The notes beneath the pieces are model-generated. The model saw nothing but the letters and a program-made list of their open reading frames with translations, searched no databases and was not told the DNA's origin. Positions 11,678-59,916 of a DNA stretch of 64,000 nt are shown piece by piece. This stretch comes from an uncultured Clostridia bacterium (lineage in GTDB: Bacteria; Bacillota; Clostridia; TANB77; CAG-508), in assembly GCA_934177725.1 (NCBI GenBank), contig CAKPPO010000008.1, positions 1,189 through 65,188 on the forward strand. The letters run 5' to 3'. The translations under genes were made by a program, and so were the position numbers. Every line of letters starts with the position of its first letter. The first letter of the stretch is position 1.

Positions 11678-11760
11678 CAATTAGGGCCTGTCCCTAATTG
11701 TTACCTTTTCCCAGTTAGGGAATGTCTCTAATTGCTACTTTTTCACAATTTGTGACATTT
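11678..11760. repeat. tandem REP-like hairpins (CAATTAGGG-cctgt-CCCTAATTG; CAGTTAGGGaatgtCTCTAATTG; CACAAATTTGTG-type)
   Basis: Palindromes read directly in the intergenic gap between the two coat genes. The CAATTAGGGAC motif recurs at 34288..34310. Confidence 0.6.
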
Positions 11761-11771
11761 CCAAAATTATT

Positions 11772-11960
11772 TTAATCATTTAAAAATGACATTAATTTTT
11801 GTTTTGCATTTAAAGAGTCTTGTGCTGATTTTGTAAATATTTGCTTTATTTGTGGATCTACTGCTTGTGAAGCATATGTGTTTAGTTTTTGATATGTTGT
11901 CTCATGTGCTCCTATTAGATGTCTTAAATTTTGTAATTCTACTTGTGATAAGTTTGCCAT
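11772..11960 (-). CDS. small spore-coat-associated protein (CotF-like partner)
   Basis: 62-aa helical protein (..LRHLIGAHETTYQKLNTYASQAVDPQIKQIF..), adjacent to the CotF-like gene as in other Clostridia/Bacilli. Confidence 0.5.
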   Translation of the reverse strand: MANLSQVELQNLRHLIGAHETTYQKLNTYASQAVDPQIKQIFTKSAQDSLNAKQKLMSFLND

Positions 11961-12129
11961 TTTTATCCTCCTTTTCTTTTCATAGATATTTTTATTATTT
12001 ACTTGTTTTTTTATTTTTATTCAAAGTTTCTTACAATATAAAAATAGAAATTTCCTATAATATAAAAAAGTCCTCCTTTAAAGAGAACTTTTTTATTTTG
12101 AATGTCTTTTTATTTCAATTATACAAATT

Positions 12130-12693
12130 TTAATTTTGTAATAGTATTTTTTCTATGTCTTTCCATCCATTTACACGAATTGCACCTTTTTGCTTTAATT
12201 CTTCATTTGTTATATCTTTATTGTGATATGCATCAAATAGTAATTTTGTTTCCGCATTTCCTTCTAAATTTGAAAGTTTATCATCTATTTTTATTTCGCA
12301 GTTTATTATTTCTTTATTTGATGTAAATATGTAATTTTGTGGTGGTATAAATGGTAAGTTATCATATAAATATATAAATTTATTTTTTAAATTATTTGCT
12401 GAATATTCTTCATTATCTCTGAAAATATATGCTGTTACTACATATAATTCATATTCTTTAGACAATTTTTCCATAACTTCGTAGGCATTTAATAACATTT
12501 CACAATAATCATATACATTTTTCGTATTAAAAAATTCTGACCATTCTTTATATCTCTCTTTTGGAATTAAATCTTGTATGTAATATGTCTTTATATCTTC
12601 TTTTTGATAACTTGTACCTAAAAATTGATTTACTAAACTTAAGAACCCTCCATCACATATTACATCATCCATGTCTATCATTATTTTTTTCAT
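12130..12693 (-). CDS. HAD-family 5'(3')-deoxyribonucleotidase-like protein
   Basis: N-terminal DMDDV (DxDxV) motif. Length and pattern match the NT5C/YorS family. Confidence 0.6.
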   Translation of the reverse strand: MKKIMIDMDDVICDGGFLSLVNQFLGTSYQKEDIKTYYIQDLIPKERYKEWSEFFNTKNVYDYCEMLLNAYEVMEKLSKEYELYVVTAYIFRDNEEYSANNLKNKFIYLYDNLPFIPPQNYIFTSNKEIINCEIKIDDKLSNLEGNAETKLLFDAYHNKDITNEELKQKGAIRVNGWKDIEKILLQN

Positions 12694-12747
12694 AGTTTAC
12701 TCCTGTTTTCTATTCCATATATTTTTTATATTAACGTTATCTGACTT

Positions 12748-15918: not shown

Positions 15919-16039
15919 ATCTTGTCCCTCTTCTTAACCATTTTTATATTATTATAATTGTTATACTAACTTTTGTCTATAATATATATAAGATTATTAA
16001 ATTTCATACCTTACAATGCCTTTTTATAAATTGTATGCT

Positions 16040-16136
16040 CCAAAAGGGACAGATTAACCAAAAGGATTTTTTAGTCGTTCGAGCTGAAAGCGAGTTACGA
16101 ATAAAATATGCAGAGGCAACGTCCCTAAAGGTAATT
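16040..16136. repeat. REP-like element: CCAAAAGGGACAGATTAACCAAAAGG .. 55-nt GC-richer core .. AACGTCCCTAAAGGTAATT
   Basis: The end modules are identical or near-identical to 37698..37741 and to the reverse complement of 59868..59916. The core resembles the centre of the 39961..40210 element. It abuts the stop codon of the ZIP transporter gene. Confidence 0.6.
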
Positions 16137-18038: not shown

Positions 18039-18296
18039 TTATAAGTTCTCCTTTCATTGATTTACATTTGTTTTTTATTTTTTTTAACATAAATTATTAT
18101 ATCATAAAAATAGCTTTTTTTCAAGATTTTGCCCCTCTTTATGCATATATGATAAGAATTATATTAAAAAAAGAGTTGTTTTGTATATAACCTAAATTTT
18201 TTAAGTTACTTACATAATTCAACTCTTTTTCTTTTTTAGTCTACTGACTTTAATGCTTCTAGCATATCTACATTTTTTAATTTGTTATTTACAACG

Positions 18297-18325
18297 AAAA
18301 AAATCCGCTATAGCGGATTTTTTTT
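18297..18325. terminator. palindromic terminator, copy 3 of 6 (core 18303..18318)
   Basis: AAAAAAATCCGCTATAGCGGATTTTTTTT, 5 nt after the stop of the surface protein gene. Confidence 0.8.
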
Positions 18326-18329
18326 ATTT

Positions 18330-19586
18330 CTATTTTATCATTTTTAATTTTTTATATTTTATATATGCAATTATAGTAGTTCCTATTAGTACCACTATCA
18401 TAATTGTTAATCCTATTCCTACTCCTGTTTGTGGTATTGTTCCTGTTGCTATCGTTTTATCTTCTTCTCCATTTGTTGATGTGTTGTTGTTTGTGCTACC
18501 ATTTGCATTTCCTTGGTTATTATTATTGTTGTTATTTGAAGCTGCTACAACTGTTACTGTACATGTTGCTTTTTTGTTTCCATCTTTGGATACAACTGTA
18601 ATAATTGTAGATCCTATTTTTTTAGGTGTTACTGTTCCATTATTATCTACTGTTGCTACACTTTCATCGCTAGAACTCCATGTAACTATTTTGTTTGTTG
18701 CTTTTTCTGGATTAAATGTTGGTGTTAATTTTAGTGTTTTTCCTAACTCAACTTTTTCTGTTCCTGGCAAAGATATACTTTCCAATGCTACGTCTGGTTG
18801 TAAGTTATCTACTAATATATAACCATATAAGTCTCTAGTATTCTCTCCTCCTTGAAAGTATAACCACATATAATATAAGCCACTATCTGGAACATTCACT
18901 GTTTTTTCTGTATAACCAAAACCTATCTTATTAGAACTTCCATATCCATTCCAATATCCCCAACTTTTCCAATTTGCTGTTGGTACTTTTGTTTTAAGTA
19001 ATGATGCTAATTCTAAATAATTACCATTTTTACTTTTTATTTCTTTATATTTATTTATCAATGTTTCATCTGTTATTTTTTCATATTGATAAAATGGTTT
19101 ACTATTTTTTGAATTCCAGTAATTTACATTTATGCATTCAGCCTCTTTTGTGCTAAATTGTTTTCCATTATTTATTACAGTATAATTGGTTACTTTTAGA
19201 AATGGTATAGATAAATCTACTTGAAAATGATCTAAAATAATACTATCTGTTGTTTTGTCTTTTATAGTTATATAACCTTTTTCAACAGCTGTTATTACAT
19301 CTGTAAATTTTACATTATCTCCTGTAATTTCAATGTTTGCTGTTGATTCTGTATAGTCTGTTATTAAATACCACTCTCCATCTTTAACTTGTGTTGCTGC
19401 TGTTTTTGTAAGTCCAAATTGATACTCGTGTCCTTTATCTAATGTTAGACCTGAAAAATAGAATTTTTGAGTTCCAGTAGTGTTAGGATCTTTTTCTACA
19501 CTTACTGCTGCATTTGCAATGTTAGGTATTAATACCATTGCTAGTGCTATAATAGATAATATCAATATTCTTTTTACTTTTGTCAT
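18330..19586 (-). CDS. cell-wall-anchored surface protein with Big_2 (Ig-like) domain
   Basis: GGAGGTG RBS and signal peptide MTKVKRILILSIIALAMVLIPNIANA. Big_2 segment LKLTPTFNPEKATNKIVTWSSSDESVATVDNNGTVTPKKIGSTIITV. Poly-Asn linker, then IPQTG plus TM segment plus KYKK sorting signal. Confidence 0.7.
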   Translation of the reverse strand: MTKVKRILILSIIALAMVLIPNIANAAVSVEKDPNTTGTQKFYFSGLTLDKGHEYQFGLTKTAATQVKDGEWYLITDYTESTANIEITGDNVKFTDVITAVEKGYITIKDKTTDSIILDHFQVDLSIPFLKVTNYTVINNGKQFSTKEAECINVNYWNSKNSKPFYQYEKITDETLINKYKEIKSKNGNYLELASLLKTKVPTANWKSWGYWNGYGSSNKIGFGYTEKTVNVPDSGLYYMWLYFQGGENTRDLYGYILVDNLQPDVALESISLPGTEKVELGKTLKLTPTFNPEKATNKIVTWSSSDESVATVDNNGTVTPKKIGSTIITVVSKDGNKKATCTVTVVAASNNNNNNNQGNANGSTNNNTSTNGEEDKTIATGTIPQTGVGIGLTIMIVVLIGTTIIAYIKYKKLKMIK

Positions 19587-19623
19587 TTTTTCACCTCCTT
19601 CATCTTCTGTATTATATTTTAAT

Positions 19624-19950
19624 TTATTGTTCATCAATTTTTTTACCAAATATAGACATTGCAAGTTTTCCTACTACTGGTAATTCTGGATCTTCTTCTT
19701 TGTTTGCTTTTACTATACCTATTATGACTAGTACAATATATAAGCCATATACTATTGTTGAGAAAAATGGAATATAGATAGGAATTATTCTGTATATTGC
19801 ATAAATAATCATATAACCTATACCTATAATTATTGCTTGAGCTGCATGTATTTTTGTATTTCTTTGGTTATCTTTCATACCATATAATACTATAAGCCCA
19901 CCTATCCAAGTAAATACATATGCTAAAATTGCTTTACCTTTTTCACTCAT
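19624..19950 (-). CDS. DUF4870-like small membrane protein
   Basis: 108 aa with 3 TM segments. The AILAYVFTWIGGLIVLYGMKDNQ..HAAQAI pattern fits the family. Confidence 0.5.
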   Translation of the reverse strand: MSEKGKAILAYVFTWIGGLIVLYGMKDNQRNTKIHAAQAIIIGIGYMIIYAIYRIIPIYIPFFSTIVYGLYIVLVIIGIVKANKEEDPELPVVGKLAMSIFGKKIDEQ

Positions 19951-20224
19951 CTTACCTTTTCTCCTTTCTAAAAAAATTGTATAAATAAATTCTTTTTTGT
20001 AGAATTCTGCAATTAATATATCATTTAAAAATATAAATGTAAATAGTTTTTCATATATTTATGTGTTTATATATTTATATATATTATGTCCTTTTATTTC
20101 TAAAATATATTGCAAAAGATTTATTATTAATTATCTAATAGAAGAAAATATTAATTGTATTAAATGTAAAGTATAATATCTGGTAAATAAAAAAATAGAG
20201 AGAATAAAAAATGAAAAAGCAAAG

Positions 20225-20250
20225 AAAAAATCCGCCATAGCGGATTTTTT
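20225..20250. terminator. palindromic terminator, variant copy 4 of 6 (core ATCCGCCATAGCGGAT at 20230..20245)
   Basis: A-tract, hairpin and T-tract downstream of rdgB. Confidence 0.75.
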
Positions 20251-20277
20251 CTGTTTTTCATTTTTTATAGCCTTTAT

Positions 20278-20865
20278 TTAGCGTTCTACTTCTTGTTCAA
20301 GCAGTTTATGTTTCATACATTCTAATGCTATTTTTCTTGCACTTATCTTATTTTTTTCTTCTTGTGTTAATTCTGCTAAAGTTTTTCCATTTTCTAATTC
20401 AAATATTTCATCAAAGCCAAATCCGTTTTCTCCTCTTGGTGTTTCTGTTACATATCCTTGTATATTTCCTTCTTCGCAGATTGTTACTTTCCCATCTGAT
20501 AAAGCAATGGCTGTAACAAATTTTATTTGTCTTTTTTCTTTTGGTATACCTTTCATTTTTTCTATTATTGCTAGATTTCTTTCTCTATCTGTTCCTTTAT
20601 GCCATCTTTTTGTAAATACCCCTGGAAAACCATTTAAACATTCTATCTGTATTCCTGAATCATCAGCAATACACATCTTTCCATTAAGCTCTTTTGCTAT
20701 TTCTTTTGCTTTTTTTATCGCATTTTCTCTAAATGTTTCTTGGTCTTCTTCAATATCGACCTCTATTCCAAGTTCCTCCATTGAAACTATTTTATATCCT
20801 TTTAATATTTCTTGAGTTTCCTTTATTTTTCCCTTATTACCTGAAGCAATTACTATTTCTTTCAT
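20278..20865 (-). CDS. rdgB: XTP/dITP diphosphatase (RdgB/HAM1)
   Basis: MKEIVIASGNKGKIKE.. and ..GFGFDEIF.. motifs. Start taken at the internal ATG. Confidence 0.85.
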   Translation of the reverse strand: MKEIVIASGNKGKIKETQEILKGYKIVSMEELGIEVDIEEDQETFRENAIKKAKEIAKELNGKMCIADDSGIQIECLNGFPGVFTKRWHKGTDRERNLAIIEKMKGIPKEKRQIKFVTAIALSDGKVTICEEGNIQGYVTETPRGENGFGFDEIFELENGKTLAELTQEEKNKISARKIALECMKHKLLEQEVER

Positions 20866-20881
20866 TTTTATAATCCTTTCT

Positions 20882-21640
20882 TTATACCCAGTTACTTGTA
20901 AAATCTTCATTAAATTTATACCTATTTGATGGTCTATATGCAGATTCTTTTACAACTTTTTCTGTTTTCTTTACCATTGGTTCTATTTTTTTCCTAAAGT
21001 TTGCTGGTACTAATTTTTTATCTAATATTATTTCATAAACTTGTTGTAACTCAGAAATTGCAAACTCTTCATCTAAAAAACTAAATGCTATATTTGTATT
21101 TTCAATTCTGTTTCTTAATCTTTTTATTCCTGTATGTATTATAATTGCGTTTAATTCGCTAATATCAGATTTTCCTACCAATTTATTAATATATTCTATA
21201 CTTTCTCTTTGCCTTTTTGCAATTGTTTCTATTTCATATTGTATTTTTCTGTTTTCATTGTTTAATGTAATTTTTTGCACCCTTGTTTCCTTTTCGTTTT
21301 CAATATATATATCATAAAACTTCAAATTAACAGGCATATCTTTAATATTTTTCTTATTTATTATTACTAAATATGTAATTATTATTTCTGACTCTTTTGT
21401 GTAATAATTCGGATCACCCCAAGTATATAATTGTTCTATATAAAATCTTGATGTTCCAAATAGATTTTCAATTTGTTTTTCTGCTAATTTTTTTATATAT
21501 TCTTTATTATTTATTTTAAATATAGGAAAATTATAATTTTCATCTAATACTATTTGTAATTTTTTATCTTTTAATCTTCTCACATCTTTTCGTTCTTCGT
21601 TATCTGTACTAAATATTATTAGGTTACCTTTAATATTCAT
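20882..21640 (-). CDS. NrtR-like protein: degenerate Nudix fold plus C-terminal winged-helix domain
   Basis: EQLYTWGDPNY..IITYLVII (Nudix-related core without a catalytic Nudix box), and a C-terminal FAISELQQVYEIILDKKLVPANFRKKI that matches the NrtR WH signature. Confidence 0.45.
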   Translation of the reverse strand: MNIKGNLIIFSTDNEERKDVRRLKDKKLQIVLDENYNFPIFKINNKEYIKKLAEKQIENLFGTSRFYIEQLYTWGDPNYYTKESEIIITYLVIINKKNIKDMPVNLKFYDIYIENEKETRVQKITLNNENRKIQYEIETIAKRQRESIEYINKLVGKSDISELNAIIIHTGIKRLRNRIENTNIAFSFLDEEFAISELQQVYEIILDKKLVPANFRKKIEPMVKKTEKVVKESAYRPSNRYKFNEDFTSNWV

Positions 21641-21709
21641 TTTTAGTCTTTTCCTCCTTTAAATTATCCACCAAGTTATAATCCAAATTTTAACAATTTC
21701 ATCTTATTT

Positions 21710-22711
21710 CTATTTAGTATATTTTATACATTCTTGTTGTTTTCTGCAATCCTTGTATGATATAAATTCTCCATTATGCTCGATTTTTATTGATGGCTTT
21801 GGAGTTCTATCAATCTTTAAGTTTTCTATGTCTTTTGGATGGCAACCAACACTACTTCTATCTTTTAAATAATCAATTTGTGACATTACACAATAATCAC
21901 ATCCAATATTACATGGCTTATTTTCTGACCAAGAAAACCACCCTGATGTAAATTCATAATTATGATTATCAATTGTAGTAATCTTATTTAATCTCGAAAT
22001 TAGTTTTTTAGTATATGGTATAGACTCGGTGATAACTCTAACTAAATTCAAATCGCCTGCAGATGCTTGAGAAAGTACAATCTTATTATCAAGTACTTCA
22101 TATTCGTACCCAAGTTTATCTAAAATTTCTAGATTTCTTGGAGTATTTTTCTCAAAACCATGTACTTTACAAATTGTATCAAATTTATCTGCTACAGCAC
22201 AAGATGTTTTATTAAAAAATTTTACTCCATTTGCTTTGCAACACTCTATAAAATATTGTTTTGTTTCATCTTCTAGTTGTTTAATCAGTTTATTATTATG
22301 CAATCCACCCATTATAATTCTATTTCCATGGGTTGCTGCGACCTTAACAATATTTTCAATATTTTCTTTGCTATCATTTCTTCCTTTTATTAATGGTCTA
22401 AGTAAAATGGTTACATCTCCAAAAATTGAATATAATCTATCTATTGCATTAACTCTTTCCTCAAATGTATACTTTCCTTCATTTAGTCCGGTTAGTGAAT
22501 ATGATAAAAATAAATTTTTCTTCTGCTTTTCTGTTAAATTTTCTAGTAACGAAAATGCATATTCACTTGGAACAGCTTTTGTACAAACATGAAAAATATT
22601 TGAAAATCCTTCTAAAGATTTTATTTTTAATACAGTGTTTTCTATTTGATTGTCTATTAATGGATCTCCATTATTATTGATGTTTACAGGTATTTTTTCA
22701 AACCACTTCAT
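21710..22711 (-). CDS. radical-SAM-like protein with CX3CX2C motif near the C-terminus (possible circular permutation)
   Basis: The N-terminal two thirds look like the distal part of a radical-SAM/SplB-type barrel (..LSYSLTGLNEG..RVNAIDRL..ILLRPLIKGRNDS..VKVAATHG..). GWFSWSENKPCNIGCDYC appears only around residue 270. AAGGAG RBS before the ATG at 22711. Confidence 0.4.
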   Translation of the reverse strand: MKWFEKIPVNINNNGDPLIDNQIENTVLKIKSLEGFSNIFHVCTKAVPSEYAFSLLENLTEKQKKNLFLSYSLTGLNEGKYTFEERVNAIDRLYSIFGDVTILLRPLIKGRNDSKENIENIVKVAATHGNRIIMGGLHNNKLIKQLEDETKQYFIECCKANGVKFFNKTSCAVADKFDTICKVHGFEKNTPRNLEILDKLGYEYEVLDNKIVLSQASAGDLNLVRVITESIPYTKKLISRLNKITTIDNHNYEFTSGWFSWSENKPCNIGCDYCVMSQIDYLKDRSSVGCHPKDIENLKIDRTPKPSIKIEHNGEFISYKDCRKQQECIKYTK

Positions 22712-22933
22712 ATATACCATCTCCTTTTACTTATTATATTTTTTATATTAAGTAGCTACAGTTGCATTATATTCATTTGTGTATCTTTTGTCAATACTTT
22801 TTATAAAAAATATAATAAGTGCTCTGAAATATCTTTATACTTTTTGTGTAATTTACTAAATACTAATTTCTAAAAAATTTTTTATTACATACAAAAAAAC
22901 AAGATATTTTTGTATCCTGTTTTTTTACATTTT

Positions 22934-23995: not shown

Positions 23996-24102
23996 AAATA
24001 TTCTCCTTTTTAAATTATATATTCTTTGGTATTATACTACATTTTTATATTTTATTCAATAGAAAAACCGCTCTTTAATTTAAAAAGCGGTTTCTCTTAT
24101 TA

Positions 24103-24468
24103 TTATTTTAATGCTTTTTTTATATCCGTCTGATATTGTTTAATAAGTGAATAAAACAATGGATGAGCTATTTCTTCAGCTTTTTCTACGTCCTCATCAA
24201 GTTTTTGGAAATACCTACCAATTAAAATGTAAAGATCACTCTCGTCTAATTTTTCAATTTCTGTATCTAATACCTTCTTTTCTTCAATTTCCAATGTTGT
24301 AATGTCAGCCAATAAGTCATCAATCCAAATCCAGAATATAGTATTTTCTCTACTCTCTCCTAGTAGTTTCCTCGCATGTTGTCTACCATCACTATACATA
24401 CTCACTTTTGCAGCTAATTCTTCCCGTAGTGCAGATACCTTTTCAACCTGCTCCTCTGTAAATTTCAT
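24103..24468 (-). CDS. hypothetical acidic helical protein
   Basis: 121-aa ORF with RBS GGAGGA and a downstream hairpin (AAACCGCT..AGCGGTTT). No family recognised. Confidence 0.45.
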   Translation of the reverse strand: MKFTEEQVEKVSALREELAAKVSMYSDGRQHARKLLGESRENTIFWIWIDDLLADITTLEIEEKKVLDTEIEKLDESDLYILIGRYFQKLDEDVEKAEEIAHPLFYSLIKQYQTDIKKALK

Positions 24469-24560
24469 ATTTTTTATCCTCCTTCTAATTTAGAATACAA
24501 GATTTTTATAGTTATTATATTTGATATTGTACTATCTCTTTTCATAATTGTCAACAAATA

Positions 24561-24610
24561 AAAAAACAGGTTATAATATGATAATATTTTTATTATAACC
24601 TGTTTTTTTT
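24561..24610 (-). terminator. intrinsic terminator downstream of the yhaN-like gene
   Basis: AAAAAACAGGTTATAAT...ATTATAACCTGTTTTTTTT long hairpin. Confidence 0.7.
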
Positions 24611-24618
24611 AGATTTTA

Positions 24619-33064: not shown

Positions 33065-33166
33065 AATTTTAGAGACGGACCTAAAAATTTGATTAGTACG
33101 TATTAAATGTCCAAAAGGAACACTTTTTAGTGACATTTTTTGTGTCGCTAAAGAGTGTCCCTTCTG
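33065..33166. repeat. REP-like elements: AAATTTTAGAGACGGACCTAAAAATTT hairpin, plus the 56-nt hairpin CCAAAAGGAACACT..AGAGTGTCCCTTCTGG
   Basis: The first part resembles the TAGGGACGG ends of the RayT repeats. The second part (33111..33166) is about 75% identical to 35809..35863, with compensatory stem changes. Confidence 0.6.
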
Positions 33167-33172
33167 GCATAA

Positions 33173-34225: not shown

Positions 34226-34287
34226 ATTTTTTACCTCCATATTAAAATCTTTTATAATTAACACTGTTCCAAATTGAGAAATTGTTA

Positions 34288-34310
34288 CAATTGTGGACTG
34301 TCCCTAATTG
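34288..34310. repeat. REP-like imperfect palindrome CAATTGTGGACTGTCCCTAATTG overlapping the murF stop codon
   Basis: Same CAATTAGGGAC/GTCCCTAATTG motif as at 11678..11700. Confidence 0.5.
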
Positions 34311-35808: not shown

Positions 35809-35863
35809 GCAAAAGGAGCGCTCCTTGTTGACACTTTTGGTGTCACTAAAGAGCGCCCTTTTG
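35809..35863. repeat. REP-like hairpin CAAAAGGAGCGCTC..GACACttttgGTGTC..GAGCGCCCTTTTG
   Basis: Paralogue of 33111..33166, in the same orientation, upstream of murF. Confidence 0.6.
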
Positions 35864-36068: not shown

Positions 36069-36200
36069 TGTATATTACCTCCAAATTCTCAAAGTCTAGA
36101 TTTAGAAAATAAATTTATTTTCTAATTATATTATGTGCAATTTAGTTTGCAAAATACTAATAATATTTTCCTGTTTTTTTTGCTCCGTCCCCAAAAACAG

Positions 36201-37630: not shown

Positions 37631-37741
37631 GTACCAAAAGGGACACTTTCACCTTTGGGGACGTTTCCTTTTGGAGTATTGTACAAAATAAAATATCCAA
37701 AAGGGACAGATTAACCAAAATGAAACGTCCCAAAAGGTAAT
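37631..37741. repeat. cluster of REP-like modules (CCAAAAGGGACAC..CCTTTGGGGACGTTTCCTTTTGG; CCAAAAGGGACAGATTAACCAAAATGAAACGTCCCAAAAGGTAATT)
   Basis: Lies between sleB and ypeB. The modules are shared with 16040..16136 and 59808..59916. Confidence 0.65.
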
Positions 37742-39948: not shown

Positions 39949-39960
39949 AAATAATTTTTA

Positions 39961-40210
39961 AATTTTAGGGACGGGCTTTTTACAATTTGCATCTTATTAA
40001 ATAGTTTATTCTTAAAACTTTATAATATATTGTTTTTTATACCTTGGTGTCGCGGTCAGCAGTTTAAAAAATTACTAGTACGTTGACCGCTCCATTCGCA
40101 CTCGCTTTAGCTTGTTTGGTCGCTTACGCGGTATTGCAAAACAATATATTATAAAATTTCTAATTAAATAGTAAATAGCTGCAAATTGTAAAAAGCTCGT
40201 CCCTAAAATT
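39961..40210. repeat. 250-nt nested inverted-repeat element with REP-type ends and a GC-richer core
   Basis: The ends AATTTTAGGGACGGGCTTTTTACAATTTGCA (39961..39991) and TGCAAATTGTAAAAAGCTCGTCCCTAAAATT (40180..40210) are inverted, with 1 mismatch. A second inner inverted pair is TTATAATATATTGTTTT. The core is 40047..40140. Confidence 0.65.
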
Positions 40211-40230
40211 TACTTTTTTTGCTATTTTTG

Positions 40231-55085: not shown

Positions 55086-57244
55086 TATATTTTCATACTT
55101 AATTTTACCTTTTGTCTTTCCATATCTATTGCTATAACTTTTACTTTTACAACATCACCTACTGAAACTATTTCAGATGGATTTTTAACAAACTTGTCAC
55201 TCATTTCAGATATGTGTACTAATCCATCATGTTTTACTCCAACATCTACAAATGCTCCAAAATCTATTACATTTCTTACTGTTCCTGTTAATATTTGTCC
55301 TTCTCTTAAGTCTTCAAATTTTAAAACATCACTACGAAGAACTGGCTTTGGCATTTCTTCTCTTGGGTCTCTTCCCGGTTTTGAAAGCTCATCTATAATG
55401 TCTTTTAATGTCATGCTTCCTACTTGCAATTCTTTACTAGTATTTTCTACATTTACTCTTGCTAATTTTTCTTTTATTTCTTTTAAAGAATCTTTATTTA
55501 ATAAATCTTCCTTTTTGTATCCTATAGATTTTAATAAACTTTCTGCTACTTCATAGCTTTCTGGGTGAACACTTGTTATTTCTAATGGATTTTTTCCGTT
55601 AAATACTCTTATAAATCCTGCACATTGCTCAAATGCTACTTTTCCTAATTTTGGAACCTTTAAAAGTTCTTTTCTTTCTTTTAGTTTTCCATTTTCATCT
55701 CTATATTTTACAATGTTATTTGCAATAGTTTTATTTATTCCAGACACATAAGATAAAAGTGATGGTGTTGCAGTGTTAACATCTACACCTACTTTATTTA
55801 CTGCATCTTCAACAACACCTGTTAAACTTTCTCCTAATTTCTTTTGATCTACATCATGTTGATATTGTCCTACACCTATTGCTTTTGGCTCTATTTTTAC
55901 AAGTTCAGCAAGCGGATCTTGCAATCTTCTTGCTATTGAAATTGCTCCTCTTAAAGAAACATTTATATCTGGGTATTCTTCTGTTGCAAGCTTAGATGCA
56001 GAATATACTGATGCTCCCGCTTCTGAAACAATTGCATAATGTACTTCTTTTCCATATTTTTCTTTAACTTCTTTTATAACATCTGCTACAAACATTTCAG
56101 ATTCACGAGAAGCTGTTCCATTTCCAATTGCAAACATATCTACATTGTATTTTGCAATTAAATTAATTAAAACTTTTTTAGCACCTTCAACATCATTTTG
56201 AGGTTCTGTTGGGTAAATTGTTGTTGTGTCTAATAATTTTCCAGTTTCATCAATTACTGCAATTTTGCAACCTGTTCTATAAGCAGGGTCAAATCCAATA
56301 ACAGTTAAACCTAAAAGTGGTGCTCCAAGTAATAATTGTTTAGCATTTTGTCCAAATACTTTTATTGCTTGTTCTTCTGCTTTTTCAGTTAAATCTGAAC
56401 GAATTTCTCTTTCTATTGATGGTTCAATTAATCGTTTCCAACTATCTAAAATTGTATTTTTTAACATTTCTGTAAATTGTGTATTTCCTTTTATAATGTC
56501 TTTTTCCATTATTTCTAGTATTTTTTCTTCAGGCTTTGTTATTTTTACTTTTAAAAATTCTTCTTTTTCTCCACGATTAATTGCCAAAATTCTATGGCTT
56601 GGAATTCTATTTACTTTTTCACTAAAATCATAATACATCTCATAATTTGATTTTTCATTTTCTTTAGCTGCTTTTGTTTCAATTATTCCATCTCTATATG
56701 TAAGTCTTTTTATTTGTTTTCTATATTCGGCATTATCTGAAATATTTTCTGCAATTATATCTAATGCTCCTGCAATTGCCTCTTCTACAGAATTTACTTC
56801 TTTTTCTTCATTTAAGTATTCTTTTGCTTTATCGTAAATAGGTGTTTTTTCTTGTTGCATATAAATAATATTAGCTAAAGGTTCTAATCCTTTTTCTTTA
56901 GCTATAGTTGCTCTTGTCCTCTTCTTTTGTTTATATGGTCTATAAATATCTTCAACTTCTGCTAAAGTTTTTGCAATTTGCAATGCTATAACAATCTCAT
57001 CTGTTAACTTTCCTTGGCCTTCAATTGAATTTACAACCTCTTGTTTTCTTGTCTCCAAATTTCTTAAATATGTAAGTCTTTCTCCTAAATCTCTTAAAGT
57101 TTCATCTGAAAGCCCACCTGTAACCTCTTTTCTATAACGTGCAATAAATGGTATTGTATTTCCTTCATCTATCAACGCTACTGTCTTTTCAACTTGGCTC
57201 TCCTTTATATTTAATTCTTCTGCTATTTGTTTATTTATATTCAT
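55085..57244 (-). CDS. tex: Tex-like transcription accessory protein (YqgF/HhH/S1 domains)
   Basis: N-terminal ..TIPFIARYRKE.. signature and a C-terminal S1 domain. GGAGG RBS before the internal ATG. Confidence 0.9.
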   Translation of the reverse strand: MNINKQIAEELNIKESQVEKTVALIDEGNTIPFIARYRKEVTGGLSDETLRDLGERLTYLRNLETRKQEVVNSIEGQGKLTDEIVIALQIAKTLAEVEDIYRPYKQKKRTRATIAKEKGLEPLANIIYMQQEKTPIYDKAKEYLNEEKEVNSVEEAIAGALDIIAENISDNAEYRKQIKRLTYRDGIIETKAAKENEKSNYEMYYDFSEKVNRIPSHRILAINRGEKEEFLKVKITKPEEKILEIMEKDIIKGNTQFTEMLKNTILDSWKRLIEPSIEREIRSDLTEKAEEQAIKVFGQNAKQLLLGAPLLGLTVIGFDPAYRTGCKIAVIDETGKLLDTTTIYPTEPQNDVEGAKKVLINLIAKYNVDMFAIGNGTASRESEMFVADVIKEVKEKYGKEVHYAIVSEAGASVYSASKLATEEYPDINVSLRGAISIARRLQDPLAELVKIEPKAIGVGQYQHDVDQKKLGESLTGVVEDAVNKVGVDVNTATPSLLSYVSGINKTIANNIVKYRDENGKLKERKELLKVPKLGKVAFEQCAGFIRVFNGKNPLEITSVHPESYEVAESLLKSIGYKKEDLLNKDSLKEIKEKLARVNVENTSKELQVGSMTLKDIIDELSKPGRDPREEMPKPVLRSDVLKFEDLREGQILTGTVRNVIDFGAFVDVGVKHDGLVHISEMSDKFVKNPSEIVSVGDVVKVKVIAIDMERQKVKLSMKI

Positions 57245-57262
57245 TATTTTTCCTCCGAACAA

Positions 57263-57310
57263 TAGGGACGGTCTTTTTCGTTCCGAATTCGGAACACTTG
57301 GGACACTCCT
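57263..57310. repeat. RayT left inverted repeat TAGGGACGGTCTTTTTCGTTCCGAATTCGGAACACTTGGGACACTCCT
   Basis: Read directly from the sequence. Lies between the tex start and the RayT stop. Confidence 0.8.
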
Positions 57311-57315
57311 TATGT

Positions 57316-58098
57316 CTAATCTTTCTTTTTTATTTCTCTATAATCGTTTAATATTTTACTTAATTTTATTCTACTTATTCCTATATTTTCTGCTAATTTT
57401 GTTTTTGTCGGTTTCAACTCCATTGAATTATACAATTTTTTTATCAATCTTTTGTCTTCTTGTAATTCTTTTAATGTTATCTCTTCTTTTTTTATAAACT
57501 TATCTATTTCTTCTTGTACTTTTTCTTCTGTAATTTCTTCTTTTTCTAATTCTTTAAATAGTTTTTCATCATATTCGATCTTTAAAAATTCTTTTAAATA
57601 ATTATATTTTGAATTGAATATCTTTTGTATTATTTCTTTTGTAATAATTCCTTTTTTATTTATATAATCATTATAACTTGAATATTTATATTCTTTCTCT
57701 AATCTTACAATTCCAGCTTTTACTGGATTCATATGCACATATTTAATACACTTTGTTAAATAATCTTGATTATATATTTCCTTACATTCAAATCTATTTC
57801 TGAATACATATCCTACTCTTTTTTCCTCTTTATTGTAGTTTATTGCATATGTTGTATTTAATTTTCTCATAAATATAGTAAGCTCATTTATATCTTCTGT
57901 ATATATAATTATATGTACATGATTTTCCATTACACAAAAACTTATAATGTCTATTTTTTGCTTTTCTTTAAAAAATTTCATCAAATAAATATACTTTTCT
58001 TTATACTTATTATTATAAAATATCTTTTCTTTTTTTATTCCTTGGACCATTACATGAAAAAATCCATTCACTAAATCTTTTCTTGCTTTACGGGGCAT
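57316..58098 (-). CDS. IS200-like Y1 (HUH) transposase of the RayT / COG1943 type with C-terminal HTH-like extension
   Basis: MPRKARK.. N-terminus, HUH motif ENHVHIII and catalytic-Tyr region YVHMNPVKAG. 260 aa, longer than IS200 TnpA. Confidence 0.8.
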   Translation of the reverse strand: MPRKARKDLVNGFFHVMVQGIKKEKIFYNNKYKEKYIYLMKFFKEKQKIDIISFCVMENHVHIIIYTEDINELTIFMRKLNTTYAINYNKEEKRVGYVFRNRFECKEIYNQDYLTKCIKYVHMNPVKAGIVRLEKEYKYSSYNDYINKKGIITKEIIQKIFNSKYNYLKEFLKIEYDEKLFKELEKEEITEEKVQEEIDKFIKKEEITLKELQEDKRLIKKLYNSMELKPTKTKLAENIGISRIKLSKILNDYREIKKKD

Positions 58099-58158
58099 AA
58101 TACTACCTTCTTTCTTTTTATTATTTAGCCCCTATTTCATTTTTTCCTTTTTTATTAA

Positions 58159-58206
58159 AGGAGCGTCCCTCATGTTCCGAATTCGGAACGAAAAGGACCG
58201 TCCCTA
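58159..58206. repeat. RayT right inverted repeat AGGAGCGTCCCTCATGTTCCGAATTCGGAACGAAAAGGACCGTCCCTA
   Basis: Reverse complement of the left repeat with 5 mismatches. Confidence 0.8.
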
Positions 58207-58209
58207 GTG

Positions 58210-59790
58210 TTACTCGATTCCTAAATATTCATTATAAGTTACTTCTCTATCTACAACTCTATCTAGTTTTATATCTATTATTCTATTTGCTACTGTTTGT
58301 GTTAGTTGATGGTCGTGTGATGTAAATATAATATTTCCTTTAAATTTTGTCATTCCTTCATTTAATGCTGTTATACTTTCCATGTCAAGATGGTTTGTTG
58401 GTTCATCCATTATTAAGAAATTTGCTCCTGAAAGCATCATTTTTGAAAGTACACATCTTACTTTTTCTCCACCTGATAGTACTTTTACATATTTAAGTGC
58501 TTCTTCACCAGAGAATAGCATTCTTCCTAGGAAACTTCTTACATATGTTTCGTCTGGGTCTTTTGAATATTGACGAAGCCAATCTGTTATTGTCATATCT
58601 TCTTCAAATAAATAGTTGTTGTCTTTAGGGAAATATGTATTTGTAATTGTAGTTCCCCATTCAATTTCACCTTCGTCTGGCTCTAGTTCTCCAGCTATTA
58701 TTTGGAATAATACTGTTTTTGCATTTTCATTATCTGCTAAAAATGCTATTTTATCATCTGCTTTTACTACAAATGAAACATTATCTAATAATTTTTCTCC
58801 ATTTATAGTTTTTGAAATATTTTTAACTTTTAATATTTCTTTTCCAGGTTCTCTATCTGGTTTGAAATCTATGTATGGATATCTTCTATTTGATGGTTTT
58901 ATTTCATCTAATTCTATTTTTTCCAATGATTTTTTTCTTGATGTTGCTTGTTTTGATTTTGAAGCATTTGCACTAAATCTTGCAATAAATGCTTGTAATT
59001 CTTTTATTTTTTCTTCTTTCTTCTTATTTTGTTCTTTCATTTGTTTTGCTAAAAGTTGGCTTGATTCATACCAGAAATCATAGTTTCCTGGATATACTTT
59101 TATTTGTCCAAAGTCAACATCTGCAATATGTGTACATACTTTATTTAAGAAATATCTATCGTGTGATACTACTATCACTGTGTTTTCAAAATTAATTAAG
59201 AATTCTTCAAGCCATGCTATGCTTTTTAAATCTAAGTCGTTTGTAGGTTCGTCCAATAGTAATATATCTGGATTTCCAAATAATGCTTGGGCTAAAAGTA
59301 CTTTTACTTTTTCTTTTGCTTCTAGTTCACTCATTAATTTATAATGATTTTCTGTTTCTATTCCTAAATCATTTAAAAGTGCAGCTGCATCAGATTCTGC
59401 ATTCCATCCATCTAATTCTGCAAATCTTTCTTCTAATTTTGCAGCTTTCATTCCATCTTCTTCACTAAAATCTGGTTTTGCATAAATAGCATCTTTTTCT
59501 TTCATTATATTATATAATTCTTGGTTTCCCATTATAACTGTATCCATTACAGTATATTCTTCGTAAGCAAAGTGATCTTGTTTTAAAACAGATAGTCTTT
59601 CTGTTTTTTCCATTGTTACTTCACCTTTGCTTGGTTCTAATTCTCCTGATAAAACTTTTAAAAATGTTGATTTTCCTGCACCATTTGCACCAATTATTCC
59701 ATAGCAACATCCTTTATTAAATTTAATATTTACGTCTTCAAATAGTGTTCTTTTTCCAAATCTAATAGTAACACCTATAGCATTTAACAT
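58210..59790 (-). CDS. ABC-F family ATPase (translation-associated, YbiT-like)
   Basis: Two ABC cassettes (GANGAGKST; LSGGEKVR) joined by a charged linker, with no TM domains. Confidence 0.85.
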   Translation of the reverse strand: MLNAIGVTIRFGKRTLFEDVNIKFNKGCCYGIIGANGAGKSTFLKVLSGELEPSKGEVTMEKTERLSVLKQDHFAYEEYTVMDTVIMGNQELYNIMKEKDAIYAKPDFSEEDGMKAAKLEERFAELDGWNAESDAAALLNDLGIETENHYKLMSELEAKEKVKVLLAQALFGNPDILLLDEPTNDLDLKSIAWLEEFLINFENTVIVVSHDRYFLNKVCTHIADVDFGQIKVYPGNYDFWYESSQLLAKQMKEQNKKKEEKIKELQAFIARFSANASKSKQATSRKKSLEKIELDEIKPSNRRYPYIDFKPDREPGKEILKVKNISKTINGEKLLDNVSFVVKADDKIAFLADNENAKTVLFQIIAGELEPDEGEIEWGTTITNTYFPKDNNYLFEEDMTITDWLRQYSKDPDETYVRSFLGRMLFSGEEALKYVKVLSGGEKVRCVLSKMMLSGANFLIMDEPTNHLDMESITALNEGMTKFKGNIIFTSHDHQLTQTVANRIIDIKLDRVVDREVTYNEYLGIE

Positions 59791-59807
59791 GTTTTTTCCT
59801 CCTTATG

Positions 59808-59916
59808 TTCCTTTTTGGACATTTTCTTAATTATAGTTTTTCCATTTGGACGTTTTATTTTAGGCAGTACCCAAAAGGAAACGTCCCCAAAGGTTAATCT
59901 GTCCCTTTTGGTAATT
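59808..59916. repeat. cluster of REP-like modules in the ABC-F upstream region
   Basis: The reverse complement reads CCAAAAGGGACAGATTAACCTTTGGGGACGTTTCCTTTTGG..AAACGTCCAAATGG..ATGTCCAAAAAGG. The modules are shared with 16040.. and 37631... Confidence 0.65.

What the first reader, a model, noticed from the sequence alone, without database searches (positions are those of the whole stretch)
11678..59916. Dispersed family of GGGAC/GTCCC hairpin repeats occupying intergenic gaps
Related modules recur in the following places.
- 11678..11760
- 16040..16136
- 33065..33166
- 34288..34310
- 35809..35863
- 37631..37741
- 39961..40210
- Both RayT flanks
- 59808..59916

Shared strings include:
- CCAAAAGGGACAGATTAACC, three times;
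- CCTTTGGGGACGTTTCCTTTTGG, at 37651.. and as the reverse complement of 59868..;
- AACGTCCC(A/T)AAAGGTAATT, at 16118.. and 37723..;
- TAGGGACGG(G/T)CTTTTT, at 39966.. and the RayT ends;
- GGGACACTC, at the RayT inner end and in 33152..33160 as reverse complement;
- CAATTAGGGAC, at 11678.. and 34288...

Several copies abut or overlap stop codons (zupT, murF, sleB), as REP elements typically do. In a genome this AT-rich these GC-containing motifs stand out. They are plausible substrates of the RayT at 57316..58098.
Basis: seen in the sequence. Interest (0 to 1): 0.68.

Follow-up and report, generated by a model that had tools for sequence, protein, structure and literature searches.

The report
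GGGAC hairpin repeats of RayT-like transposases
The GGGAC/GTCCC hairpins are real, strongly non-random short palindromic repeats in an uncultured gut Clostridia genome. They are best read as end-repeat modules of several RayT-like tyrosine transposases (the known but little-studied TIRYT/TIRtron kind), and the commonest type belongs to a paralogous gene outside this window.

Summary
GGGAC/GTCCC occurs 28 times in the window, 19 of them in the 16% of sequence that is non-coding (p 1e-9), and every quoted string is present.

It is not one family. At least five sequence families share a GGGAC core:
- **Type A:** the 54-nt inverted arms around the Y1 gene at 57316-58098.
- **Type A':** a 254-bp hairpin element and a mini-palindrome.
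- **Type B:** a 44-nt element at three sites.
- **Type C:** two long hairpins, possibly ordinary 3' hairpins.
- **Types D and E:** short palindromes.

The gene is RayT-like: a Y1-HUH fold closest to E. coli TnpA_REP, plus a C-terminal helix-turn-helix (HTH). It is syntenic, under purifying selection and always flanked by type A arms. This matches the published TIRYT/TIRtron class with its GGGGWSAS motif.

Type B has at least 76 copies in the loci fetched from 11 related genome assemblies (MAGs) plus the window, and 86% are intergenic. It flanks a 35%-identical paralogue near radA, outside the window. More distant homologues are flanked by A'- and D-like repeats.

Compared with a near-identical genome (MAG CAKPAW01), one 63-nt unit is gained or lost and the whole 254-bp element is inverted.

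Verdict: a new member of a known kind.

The parts
57316..58098 (-). RayT-like Y1 (HUH) tyrosine transposase gene with a C-terminal HTH, 260 aa ('RayT-A', TIRYT type)
   Evidence: Pfam Y1_Tnp 38 bits. NCBIfam REP_Tyr_transpos 69.7 bits, below the cut-off of 80, against IS200 19.6. A family profile hits PDB 4ER8 TnpA_REP at E 2e-5, with the HUH and Tyr motifs aligned; H60, H62 and Y120 are invariant. AF2 model pLDDT 87, best fold match 4ER8. Syntenic between the ABC-F and Tex genes in two other species, dN/dS 0.15-0.21.
57258..57311 (.). Type A arm (Tex-proximal): AACAATAGGGACGGTCTTTTTC-GTTCCGAATTCGGAAC-ACTTGGGACACTCCTT
   Evidence: Inverted repeat I1, 54 nt, 89% complementary to 58158-58211. 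The same arm flanks the orthologues in L101 and L104. Solo copies exist in L065, L077, L009 and L104.
58158..58211 (.). Type A arm (ABC-F-proximal), inverted partner of 57258-57311
39959..40212 (.). Type A' element: a 254-bp long hairpin (MITE-like) with 41-nt terminal inverted repeats. Its tips TAAATTTTAGGGACGGGCTT match the inverted repeat around the homologue P0058
   Evidence: Inverted repeat I3. ssDNA fold -53.5 kcal/mol, z -9.9. Inverted as a whole in CAKPAW01 L033: 248/254 identical when inverted, 191/270 when direct, with identical flanks. Tips match the L109 inverted repeat. Its core shares CGAGCTAAAGCGAGTGCGAAT with the long type B insert.
33065..33089 (.). Type A'-like mini-palindrome AATTTTAGAGACGGACCTAAAAATT
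   Evidence: Sequence. Decayed to AATTTAGTAATAAATTAAGAAATT in related contig L118.
16038..16136 (+). Type B, long variant (97-99 nt): a 44-nt element with a ~50-nt structured hairpin inserted; overlaps the zupT stop
   Evidence: In 9 copies from several species the insert hairpin has compensatory changes at 9 of 16 pairs and is 92.6% paired, against 49% or less in slid controls.
37632..37741 (+). Type B doublet: X'-Y unit (37634-37674), 22-nt spacer, X-U2 unit (37697-37737); abuts the sleB stop
   Evidence: ssDNA fold -23.6 kcal/mol, z -6.2. The first 63 nt (37634-37696) are absent in CAKPAW01 L033.
59869..59916 (-). Type B unit (X-Y form), upstream of the ABC-F gene
   Evidence: At the orthologous intergenic site L101 carries a long type B variant.
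59808..59862 (+). Degenerate type B-like copy (TTGGAC for GGGAC), inverted relative to 59869-59916
   Evidence: Sequence comparison only. Below the nhmmer threshold. Weakest assignment in this list.
11678..11757 (+). Type D: two 23-nt palindromes (CAATTAGGGCCTGTCCCTAATTG, CAGTTAGGGAATGTCTCTAATTG) plus the tail CTACTTTTTCACAATTTGTGACA
   Evidence: z -5.4. D-type copies are in USDF L013, L045, L095, CAADYJ L050 and CANQFS L061. A D-like palindrome forms the inverted repeat around the homologue P0081 (L107).
34265..34310 (-). Type D unit (palindrome plus spacer plus CAATTTGGAACA), overlapping the murF stop
33113..33168 (.). Type C long hairpin just downstream of ddl; arms resemble GGGACACTC(C/T)TTA of the inner part of the type A arm
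   Evidence: ssDNA fold z -4.6. L118 has a hairpin at the same place built on GGGTAC/GTACCC. May be an ordinary 3' hairpin.
35809..35863 (.). Type C long hairpin about 32 nt downstream of a small acid-soluble spore protein gene (35895-36068, minus strand)
   Evidence: (z -6.4).
36170..36200 (.).
   Evidence: z -3.5. The same element is in USDF L065 (about 2706-2736) and USFC L020.

Best explanation
[quoted passage not shown] They are the terminal-inverted-repeat modules of a clade of RayT-like Y1 (HUH) tyrosine transposases that carry a C-terminal HTH domain. This is the arrangement published as TIRYT/TIRtron (TnpA_REP subclass 2.1).

Each enzyme gene sits, single-copy and syntenic, between two inverted copies of its own repeat type:
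- Type A around the gene in this window.
- Type B, the abundant 44-nt element, around a paralogue next to radA in the same species.
- A'-like and D-like repeats around more distant homologues.

Most likely mechanism, by analogy with TnpA_REP and IS608 TnpA: the imperfect palindromes extrude as hairpins on single-stranded DNA at the replication fork. The cognate enzyme binds them and cuts at a fixed offset through Tyr120, with the His60/His62 metal site. Strand transfer then copies single units or inverted doublets into new, mostly intergenic, sites, while the gene itself stays put.

Shown here: the repeat families, their enrichment and intergenic bias, the gene-between-inverted-copies architecture in four paralogue lineages, the conserved catalytic residues and fold, purifying selection and synteny, and differences at repeats between near-identical genomes (a 63-nt indel, inversions).

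Inferred: binding, cleavage and transposition; which enzyme moves which family; and any role of the HTH in reading the GGGAC boxes.
For: **Enrichment.** GGGAC/GTCCC lies outside genes 19 of 28 times (p 1e-9), with 18 observed against 1.7 expected in non-coding DNA. Motif hits far exceed shuffles.

**Type B as a dispersed family.** A scan of GTDB species genomes gave 59 stretches in 11 related 27-31% GC uncultured Clostridia MAGs (for example 21 in CAKPAW01 and 18 in USDF01). The hits in unrelated phyla were single. That gives 76 copies with a 44-nt consensus. 65 of 76 are intergenic although 83% of the DNA is coding. The hairpin fold has z -3.2 and -3.6.

**Gene architecture.**
- Window gene: 54-nt inverted repeat.
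- Its orthologues (84% and 66% identical) lie at the same ABC-F | gene | Tex locus with the same arms.
- Paralogue in L100: flanked by a 44-nt, 100% complementary type B inverted repeat. In L070 and L061 the upstream flank is a partial unit (Y) and the downstream flank a full unit.
- P0058 and P0081 are flanked by A'-like and D-like inverted repeats.

**Enzyme.** Y1_Tnp, a near-threshold RayT model hit, a 4ER8 profile hit at E 2e-5, a fold match to 4ER8 at E 4.5e-7, and invariant HUH and Tyr. C-terminal HTH hits include HTH_7, HTH_23 and HTH_28. dN/dS is 0.15-0.21.

**Species-matched variants.** CANRLO copies, including those flanking its paralogue, carry GATTTACC where CAKPAW carries GATTAACC.

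**Dynamics.**
- A 63-nt unit is present or absent between the window and CAKPAW01 L033.
- The 254-bp element is inverted.
- The spacer of an inverted doublet is flipped between CAKPAW L059 and USDF L002.
- In-frame copies lie inside DnaE-, AddA- and Mfd-like genes.

**Literature.** TIRYT genes are flanked by inverted repeats sharing GGGG[AT][CG]A[CG] and sometimes have dispersed repeat families (PMC3733652). Subclass 2.1 has a C-terminal HTH (PMC6006769). Orthologous type A arms read GGGGACAC.
Against: - No biochemical or read-level evidence of cleavage or transposition.
- Exact element boundaries and target sites could not be defined, because intergenic DNA is too diverged between species.
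- In about 229 kb held for this species, type A occurs only as the two arms of the gene. The window's enzyme therefore has no demonstrated dispersed family of its own here, although L104 has 4 arms in 20 kb.
- All family members score below the NCBIfam RayT cut-off.
- Types C and E have no linked enzyme, and type C may be an ordinary conserved 3' hairpin.
- The pairing of A' and D with P0058- and P0081-like genes comes from other organisms. Whether this genome holds those paralogues is unknown.
- The loci were fetched by a type B pattern, so copy numbers are lower bounds and density estimates are biased.
- The strand bias is modest: 31 against 14.
Confidence: 0.68

Rival explanations
1. The hairpins are mainly functional RNA or DNA structures (3' mRNA stabilisers, weak terminators, translation modulators or protein-binding sites). 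On this view they are kept by selection at each site, and the association with Y1 genes is incidental or secondary.
For: - Many copies sit within a few nucleotides of stop codons or directly before ribosome-binding sites.
- Elements lie mostly on the strand opposite to the flanking genes, 31 against 14.
- The type C hairpin downstream of ddl is kept as a hairpin with a different sequence in L118.
- The long type B insert shows compensatory changes, so its structure is selected.
- The two GGGAC-N3-CC boxes of type A arms change in parallel between species, as expected for a protein-binding site.
Against: - Near-identical 44-nt copies at dozens of unrelated sites, and inside coding regions in frame, indicate copying rather than independent origin.
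- No U-tract: 0 terminator-like sites in 33000-40400.
- No Rfam family matches even at E <= 1.
- Copies occur upstream of, downstream of and within genes.
- Four paralogue lineages are each flanked by inverted copies of a repeat.
Confidence: 0.15
2. The inverted repeats are recombination sites rather than transposon ends. The Y1-HTH proteins, or the host replication machinery, flip or exchange DNA between GGGAC-tipped inverted repeats, and dispersal is a by-product.
For: - The 254-bp element is inverted between two strains with identical flanks, and the crossover is confined to the outermost 15 nt.
- A 36-nt spacer between inverted type B copies is flipped between CAKPAW and USDF.
- The hairpin loop reads ATTTT or AAAAT in type A arms.
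- The middle box of type B is CCAAAAGG in 40 copies and CCTTTWGG in 20 of 60.
- A synteny break falls at the type A arm in USDF L065.
- Identity to L118 drops from about 94% to about 74% at the 33065-33172 cluster.
Against: - Y1 HUH enzymes act on single strands, and no inversion activity is known for them (my own knowledge of the family).
- The enzyme gene itself is never seen inverted between its arms in three species.
- Inversion of palindromic DNA can arise from replication template switching without any dedicated enzyme.
- Each flip is seen in one pair of assemblies only.
Confidence: 0.1
3. They are ordinary MITEs left by a classical DDE-type insertion sequence, with terminal inverted repeats and target-site duplications. 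The Y1 genes would merely have been trapped between two copies.
For: - The 254-bp element has the MITE look: 41-nt terminal inverted repeats, no coding capacity and AT-rich flanks.
- The hexamer AAATTT next to TAGGGAC at both ends could be read as a duplication.
Against: - AAATTT is its own reverse complement, so it is equally part of the inverted repeat.
- No DDE transposase with such ends was seen in the window or in about 550 kb of related loci.
- Y1 genes of four lineages, at different conserved loci, are each bracketed by their own repeat type. Chance trapping does not explain this.
- The 44-nt elements are far shorter than typical MITEs.
Confidence: 0.05

Closest known systems
TIRYT / TIRtron (Di Nocera et al. 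2013, PMC3733652), equated with TnpA_REP subclass 2.1 (Quentin et al. 2018, PMC6006769)
   Same: - RayT-like Y1 protein with a C-terminal HTH extension.
- Gene bracketed by long terminal inverted repeats rather than GTAG REPs.
- The inverted repeats carry the GGGG[AT][CG]A[CG] motif: GGGGACAC in orthologous arms, TGGGACAC and AGGGACAG here.
- Several paralogues per genome, each with its own repeat.
- The repeats are sometimes dispersed as singles, dimers and clusters.
   Different: - The text of those papers that I searched names no Firmicutes or Clostridia example of such repeat families. The figures and supplements were not examined.
- Quentin et al. found no REP-like sequences near subclass 2.1 genes.
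- Here one repeat type is a compact 44-nt hairpin with dozens of copies, doublets, in-frame intragenic copies and a structured long variant.
- Placement of these proteins inside subclass 2.1 was not tested by phylogeny.
REP/BIME-RayT (TnpA_REP) REPtrons and REPIN-RAYT systems of Proteobacteria (Nunvar 2010; Bertels & Rainey 2011; Ton-Hoang 2012)
   Same: - Single-copy, vertically inherited Y1 gene between inverted copies of a short imperfect palindrome that is dispersed in intergenic DNA.
- Inverted doublets with a short spacer, as in REPINs.
- Best structural match is 4ER8.
   Different: - No GTAG tag.
- The protein is about 100 residues longer, because of the HTH.
- It scores below the NCBIfam RayT cut-off.
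- The host is a low-GC Gram-positive bacterium.
- Copy numbers shown are dozens, not hundreds.
IS200/IS605 insertion sequences (IS608, ISDra2)
   Same: Y1 HUH fold and catalytic motifs; hairpin-containing ends; expected single-strand mechanism and a strand bias.
   Different: - The gene is not multi-copy.
- The ends are inverted repeats, which IS200/IS605 lack.
- No tnpB gene.
- The IS200 model scores 19.6 bits against a cut-off of 55.
Rickettsia palindromic elements (RPE) and CGTC-tagged REPs
   Same: Short palindromic repeats found in frame inside genes, including replication and repair genes. CGTC occurs inside ACGTCCC.
   Different: The defining anatomy is an unpaired terminal CGTC, an 8-9 bp stem, a 4-5 nt loop and a CCA tail. 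It is not present here, and CGTC REPs have no associated transposase.

Membership tests
TIRYT/TIRtron (TnpA_REP subclass 2.1-like) | RayT-like Y1 HUH tyrosine transposase domain | tested here: met
   Pfam Y1_Tnp. The RayT model is the best NCBIfam hit. Profile hit to 4ER8 at E 2e-5 with HUH and Tyr aligned. Fold match to 4ER8 at E 4.5e-7, TM 0.72 on the target.
TIRYT/TIRtron (TnpA_REP subclass 2.1-like) | Additional C-terminal helix-turn-helix domain | tested here: met
   260 aa against 165 aa for 4ER8. Weak HTH_3 hit in the window protein. HTH_7, HTH_23, HTH_28 and HTH_Tnp_1_2 hits among 14 family members. Helical C-terminal domain modelled at pLDDT 84-94.
TIRYT/TIRtron (TnpA_REP subclass 2.1-like) | Gene flanked by long terminal inverted repeats | tested here: met
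   54-nt arms, 89% complementary. 52 nt at 96% in L104, 44 nt at 100% in L100, 32 nt at 100% in L109, 46 nt at 83% in L107.
TIRYT/TIRtron (TnpA_REP subclass 2.1-like) | Inverted repeat carries the GGGG[AT][CG]A[CG] motif | tested here: met
   GGGGACAC in the arms of L104, L065, L077 and L009. TGGGACAC and AGGGACGC in the window arms (7 of 8 and 6 of 8 positions). AGGGACAG in type B.
TIRYT/TIRtron (TnpA_REP subclass 2.1-like) | Phylogenetic placement within subclass 2.1 | not tested
REP-RayT REPtron / REPIN-RAYT | Flanking repeat belongs to a high-copy dispersed intergenic family | tested here: inconclusive
   For the window's gene, type A arms have no solo copy in about 229 kb of this species, but 4 arms lie in 20 kb of L104. 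For the paralogue in L100 the feature is met: at least 27 type B copies in 165 kb of CAKPAW01 loci.
REP-RayT REPtron / REPIN-RAYT | REP of 20-40 nt with a conserved GTAG tag at the 5' foot of the hairpin | tested here: not met
   No GTAG at the hairpin foot in any type. The conserved core is GGGAC/GTCCC.
REP-RayT REPtron / REPIN-RAYT | Single-copy, vertically inherited transposase gene | tested here: met
   One copy in the window. Same ABC-F | gene | Tex locus at 84% and 66% identity. dN/dS 0.15-0.21. Absent from the orthologous site in USDF L065 and CANRLO L077, where a solo arm remains.
REP-RayT REPtron / REPIN-RAYT | Curated RayT sequence model threshold | tested here: not met
   NF047646 scores 69.7 bits (window), 69.2 (L100 paralogue) and 64-77 (homologues) against a cut-off of 80.
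REP-RayT REPtron / REPIN-RAYT | Enzyme binds and cleaves its repeat as single-stranded DNA | not testable with these tools
   Needs biochemistry.
IS200/IS605 insertion sequence | Multi-copy element with a short TnpA, no terminal inverted repeats and often tnpB | tested here: not met
   IS200 model 19.6 bits against a cut-off of 55. Single copy. 54-nt inverted repeats. No tnpB next to the gene.
Intrinsic (rho-independent) terminator | GC-rich stem followed by a U-tract | tested here: not met
   0 terminator-like sites in 33000-40400, which holds seven of the elements. Type C hairpins are followed by only CCTTTTG, so a weak terminator role for type C is not excluded.
MITE of a DDE transposon | Terminal inverted repeats plus target-site duplication and a cognate full-length IS | tested here: inconclusive
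   Inverted repeats are present. The flanking AAATTT is palindromic, so it cannot be scored as a duplication. No cognate IS was seen in the sequence held.
Rfam RNA families | Match to a curated covariance model | tested here: not met
   No match at any repeat site at the gathering score or at E <= 1.

The most novel reading that the evidence does not exclude
Two readings are not excluded.

1. The GGGAC-tipped inverted repeats may be substrates for DNA inversion linked to the Y1-HTH proteins. That would explain flips with identical flanks at three scales: a 5-nt hairpin loop, a 36-nt doublet spacer and a 254-bp element. It would give a HUH enzyme family a role in strain-level or phase-like DNA switching.

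2. The ~50-nt hairpin carried by the long type B variant has an apex T-CGAGC-N4-5-GCGAG-T(T) with a conserved tandem G.A, and 9 of 16 pairs show compensatory changes. The same apex occurs in the 254-bp element and beside a tRNA gene. It may be an undescribed structured RNA or single-stranded-DNA recognition module.
Probability: 0.12. Interest if true: 0.75.

Novelty: new member of a known kind. Interest (0 to 1): 0.5.

Why it matters
TIRYT / subclass 2.1 Y1 proteins are reported in about 15% of sequenced strains (PMC6006769). Their activity has not been shown, and their link to repeats is disputed: one survey found no repeats next to them.

This Clostridia lineage offers an unusually clean case for testing the link:
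- Small AT-rich genomes in which the GC-containing repeats stand out.
- At least two paralogue-repeat pairs in one species.
- Further pairs in relatives.
- Recent differences between near-identical genomes.

That makes the question of whether these enzymes move or rearrange their flanking repeats, and with what specificity, directly testable with short oligonucleotides.

There is also a practical use. These repeats mark synteny breaks, indels, inversions and in-frame insertions in DnaE-, AddA- and Mfd-like genes. They therefore matter for assembling, binning and annotating these gut MAGs.

Tried and rejected
1. **Known RNA families.** The Rfam scan of the whole window, at the gathering score and at E <= 1, gave only three tRNAs, a c-di-GMP-I riboswitch and noise. 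Nothing fell at any repeat.
2. **Intrinsic terminators.** The consensus scan found none in 33000-40400.
3. **One family.** An HMM of 60 type B copies finds only three of the listed sites. The idea was dropped in favour of several families with a common core.
4. **A second stem in the type A arm.** I first read GTCC/GGAC changing to CCCC/GGGG as compensatory. The table of ten arms shows instead that two direct boxes change in parallel, and that L065 breaks the supposed pairing. Rejected.
5. **Empty-site comparison.** I tried to define element ends and target sites this way. Alignments across species are too diverged in intergenic DNA. Only the within-species 63-nt indel is clean, and its ends are ambiguous over a 12-nt repeat.
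6. **GTAG- or CGTC-tagged REP superfamilies.** The anatomy does not fit.
7. **Single-sequence search of PDB** found no transposase. A family profile was needed.
9. **Viral contigs** hold no copy of the terminator-like repeat.

Full report
**What the window is.** The window is 27% GC and most genes are on the minus strand. It encodes YpeB, SleB, a small acid-soluble spore protein, Ddl, MurF and ZupT, so it comes from a spore-forming member of the Clostridia. Part of it (37194-44644) is 95-99% identical to contig 11 of CAKPAW01, a MAG of an uncultured human-gut Clostridia bacterium. The identity of the source strain itself is not known.

**The observation.**
- GGGAC/GTCCC occurs 28 times, 19 of them outside genes and tRNAs. 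Those regions make up 16% of the window (binomial p 1.2e-9).
- In non-coding DNA it is seen 18 times against 1.7 expected from base composition. Only the Shine-Dalgarno complement is more enriched.
- The elements listed below cover about 956 nt, roughly 9% of the 10.25 kb of non-coding DNA.
- They abut or overlap the stops of zupT, sleB and murF and lie 5 nt from the ddl stop.

**It is not one family.** An HMM built from 60 copies of the commonest type finds only 16036-16136, 37630-37742 and 59866-59915. I distinguish the following types.
- **Type A:** the 54-nt arms at 57258-57311 and 58158-58211.
- **Type A':** the 254-bp hairpin element 39959-40212, whose tips share TAGGGACGGNCTTTTT with type A (4 hits against 0.77 expected), and the mini-palindrome 33065-33089.
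- **Type B:** a 44-nt element, TTACCAAAAGGGACAGATTAACC-[AAAAGG or TTTWGG]-AAACGTCCC-[C/T]AATGGTAA. It occurs at 16038-16136 (long variant), 37632-37741 (doublet) and 59869-59916 (reverse strand). A degenerate copy may lie at 59808-59862.
- **Type C:** long hairpins at 33113-33168 and 35809-35863.
- **Type D:** CAATTAGGGAC-N-GTCCCTAATTG with a spaced third half-site, at 11678-11757 and 34265-34310.

Apart from the type A arm (z -1.5 and -2.0) and the long type B variant (z -1.8 and -1.3), all the elements folded as single strands fold better than shuffles (z -3.2 to -9.9). The mini-palindrome, the 34265-34310 unit and the 59808-59916 units were not folded.

**Type B is a real dispersed family.** I scanned one genome per GTDB species for CCAAAAGGGACANNTTNACC.
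59 of them lie in 11 related 27-31% GC uncultured Clostridia MAGs: 21 in CAKPAW01, 18 in USDF01/UMGS1612 and 9 in CANRLO01.
- The remaining 41 are single hits in unrelated organisms, about what a 17-base pattern gives by chance in 596 Gb.
- In these loci plus the window there are 76 copies with a sharp consensus.
- 65 of 76 are intergenic although 83% of the DNA is in open reading frames.
- Between co-directional genes the element lies on the strand opposite to the genes 31 times against 14.
- Ten copies lie inside long reading frames and keep them open. These include DnaE-like, AddA-like, Mfd-like, U32 peptidase-like and GH15-like genes. The same habit is reported for other REP classes (PMC3733652).
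- Copies occur as singles, as inverted doublets, and as [X-Y]-spacer-[X-U2] doublets that fold into one long hairpin (-23.6 kcal/mol, z -6.2).

**The gene at 57316-58098.**
- It has a Y1_Tnp domain. Its best NCBIfam hit is the RayT model, at 69.7 bits against a cut-off of 80. The IS200 model scores 19.6 against 55.
- A profile of 14 relatives hits E. coli TnpA_REP (4ER8) at E 2e-5, with the HUH and Tyr motifs aligned. H60, H62 and Y120 are invariant.
- An AlphaFold model (pLDDT 87) matches 4ER8 best (E 4.5e-7), followed by the IS608, ISDra2 and IS200 transposases.
- About 100 extra C-terminal residues form a helical domain, with HTH hits across the family.
- Orthologues 84% and 66% identical sit at the same ABC-F | gene | Tex locus, with dN/dS of 0.15-0.21. 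All are bracketed by the same arms.
- In two other relatives (USDF L065, CANRLO L077) the gene is missing and a solo arm remains next to Tex.
- Each arm holds two direct boxes, GGGAC-GGTCC and GGGAC-ACTCC, around a GTTCC-loop-GGAAC hairpin. The two boxes change in parallel between species, to GCCCC and ACCCC. This looks like protein recognition or gene conversion rather than base pairing.

**The key correction.** The abundant type B does not flank this gene.
- A 35%-identical paralogue of 271 aa lies in CAKPAW01, the same species, between a GH15-like gene and radA. It sits between two inverted type B copies that are 44 nt long and 100% complementary.
- The downstream copy supplies the last 16 codons of the paralogue (L100). 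The same arrangement holds in CANRLO01 and CANQFS01, where the upstream flank is a partial unit.
- Species-specific variants match: GATTTACC in all CANRLO copies, including the flanks of its paralogue, against GATTAACC in CAKPAW.
- More distant homologues (46-47% identical) at other loci are flanked by TTTAAATTTTAGGGACGGGCTTAAAAATTTAA, which matches the tips of the window's 254-bp element.
- Another is flanked by an ATTTGGGACAGTCCTAAATTG palindrome, which is type D-like.
- So each repeat type corresponds to the inverted repeat of a different paralogue lineage. Whether the A' and D paralogues exist in this genome is not known.

**Comparison with what is known.**
- Di Nocera et al. (PMC3733652) described RAYT-like genes flanked by long inverted repeats instead of GTAG REPs (TIRYT/TIRtron). 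Many of these share GGGG[AT][CG]A[CG], and some have moderately abundant dispersed repeat families.
- Quentin et al. (PMC6006769) equated these with TnpA_REP subclass 2.1, the subclass with a C-terminal HTH, and found no REP-like sequences near them.
- Bertels et al. (PMC5581495) noted Group 1 RAYTs in Clostridia with low-copy flanking 16-mers.
- The present system meets the features I could test (see the membership table). It does not meet the GTAG-REP definition or the curated RayT threshold.
- I therefore file it as a new member of the TIRYT/TIRtron kind that works like a REP-RayT system. I found no paper describing these Clostridia repeats. The absence rests on the held library only.

**Signs of recent change.**
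- Against CAKPAW01 L033 the window has an extra 63-nt X'-Y unit plus spacer at 37634-37696.
- The 254-bp element is inverted as a whole between the same two genomes. It is 248/254 identical when inverted and 191/270 when direct, and the flanks are identical. Arm-specific bases moved with the element, so the exchange lies within the outermost 15 nt.
- The 36-nt spacer of an inverted type B doublet is flipped between CAKPAW L059 and USDF L002.
- The 5-nt loop of the type A hairpin reads ATTTT in some copies and AAAAT in others.
- The middle box of type B is CCAAAAGG in 40 copies and CCTTTWGG in 20 of 60.
- I cannot say what causes these flips.

**A structured module.** The long type B variant (window 16038-16136 and eight other copies in several species) carries a ~50-nt hairpin.
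- 9 of 16 pairs show changes on both sides, and 92.6% of cells are paired against 49% or less when the partner is slid.
- A G.A mismatch and a tandem G.A are conserved: CGAGC...GCGAG becomes TGAAC...GTGAA.
- The same apex occurs in the 254-bp element, in L059 and L020, and beside a tRNA-Leu gene in L097.
- It matches nothing in Rfam. Its structure is clearly selected. Whether it acts as RNA or as single-stranded DNA is open.

**Limits.**
- Type A has no solo copy in the roughly 229 kb held for this species, although the L104 species has four arms in 20 kb.
- Type C may be an ordinary 3' hairpin. A related contig (L118) has a hairpin at the same place built on GGGTAC.
- No step of catalysis is shown.

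**Verdict.** The REP-like reading is right in kind. The specific link to the RayT in the window is only partly right. The system is a new member of a known but poorly understood kind, with two unexplained features (the flips and the structured hairpin) that deserve follow-up.

Noticed in passing
window 977-1002, 1644-1670, 18298-18323, 20225-20250, 27810-27835, 28979-29004: A second, unrelated repeat: a near-identical bidirectional terminator-like palindrome, AAAAAATCCGCTATAGCGGATTTTTT. Each copy lies a few to about 30 nt downstream of a stop codon, and all six are in the first 29 kb (D2). There is no copy in about 470 kb of related MAG loci and none in viral contigs. Nine metagenome contigs hold it, two of them (L113, L118) 90-97% identical to this window. 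It is unclear why one exact terminator sequence is reused.
   Followed up: partly
window 33065-33172 against L118 10950-11300: Identity to the related metagenome contig L118 is 91-98% over window 18274-33072. It falls to about 74% in ddl immediately beyond the repeat cluster. The repeats therefore mark a recombination or divergence boundary.
   Followed up: partly
L065 2600-3400 (USDF01) against window 57200-58260: In a close relative the Y1 gene is absent, a solo type A arm remains next to Tex, and the next gene looks like a peptide deformylase (def) by eye rather than ABC-F. That is a synteny break at the arm.
   Followed up: no
window 58128-58134 (GCCCCTA on the + strand); L100 about 2453-2460; L101, L104 and L061 upstream regions: A conserved TAGGGGC motif lies 30-60 nt upstream of the start codon of both Y1 paralogue lineages. 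It may be a promoter or autoregulatory site.
   Followed up: no
L013 6600-6720 / L086 5990-6100; L045 2760-2820; L050 3441 / L095 4674: Type B copies lie in frame inside DnaE-like, AddA-like and Mfd-like genes. They encode peptides such as YQKGQINQKETSLK or PKGTDSPLRNVPNG. The gene names are my reading of the translated flanks, not a database result.
   Followed up: partly
L097 2780-2925: Two hairpin modules with the CGAGC...GCGAG apex sit directly upstream of a tRNA-Leu gene. They are preceded by a duplicate of the first 10 nt of the tRNA region (ATGCTGATGT). This looks like an insertion footprint.
   Followed up: no
window 35895-36068 (-): A 57-aa alpha/beta-type small acid-soluble spore protein gene. 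This is my reading of the translation MGRRSSNIMSENLKEEIARELGVYEQVKQDGGWQNVSSKTCGNIVSKAIEIANRSVE. The mechanical ORF 35773-36099 (+) that covers a type C hairpin is spurious.
   Followed up: partly
window 62108-62193 (-): A c-di-GMP-I riboswitch (76.5 bits) upstream of the gene at 61435-62133.
   Followed up: no
window 11678-11757 against L075 about 1390-1440: The same intergenic site, just upstream of an orthologous small gene starting VDEKTMVNDIL, holds type D palindromes in the window and a type B element in CASCUT01. Different repeat types use the same sites.
   Followed up: no
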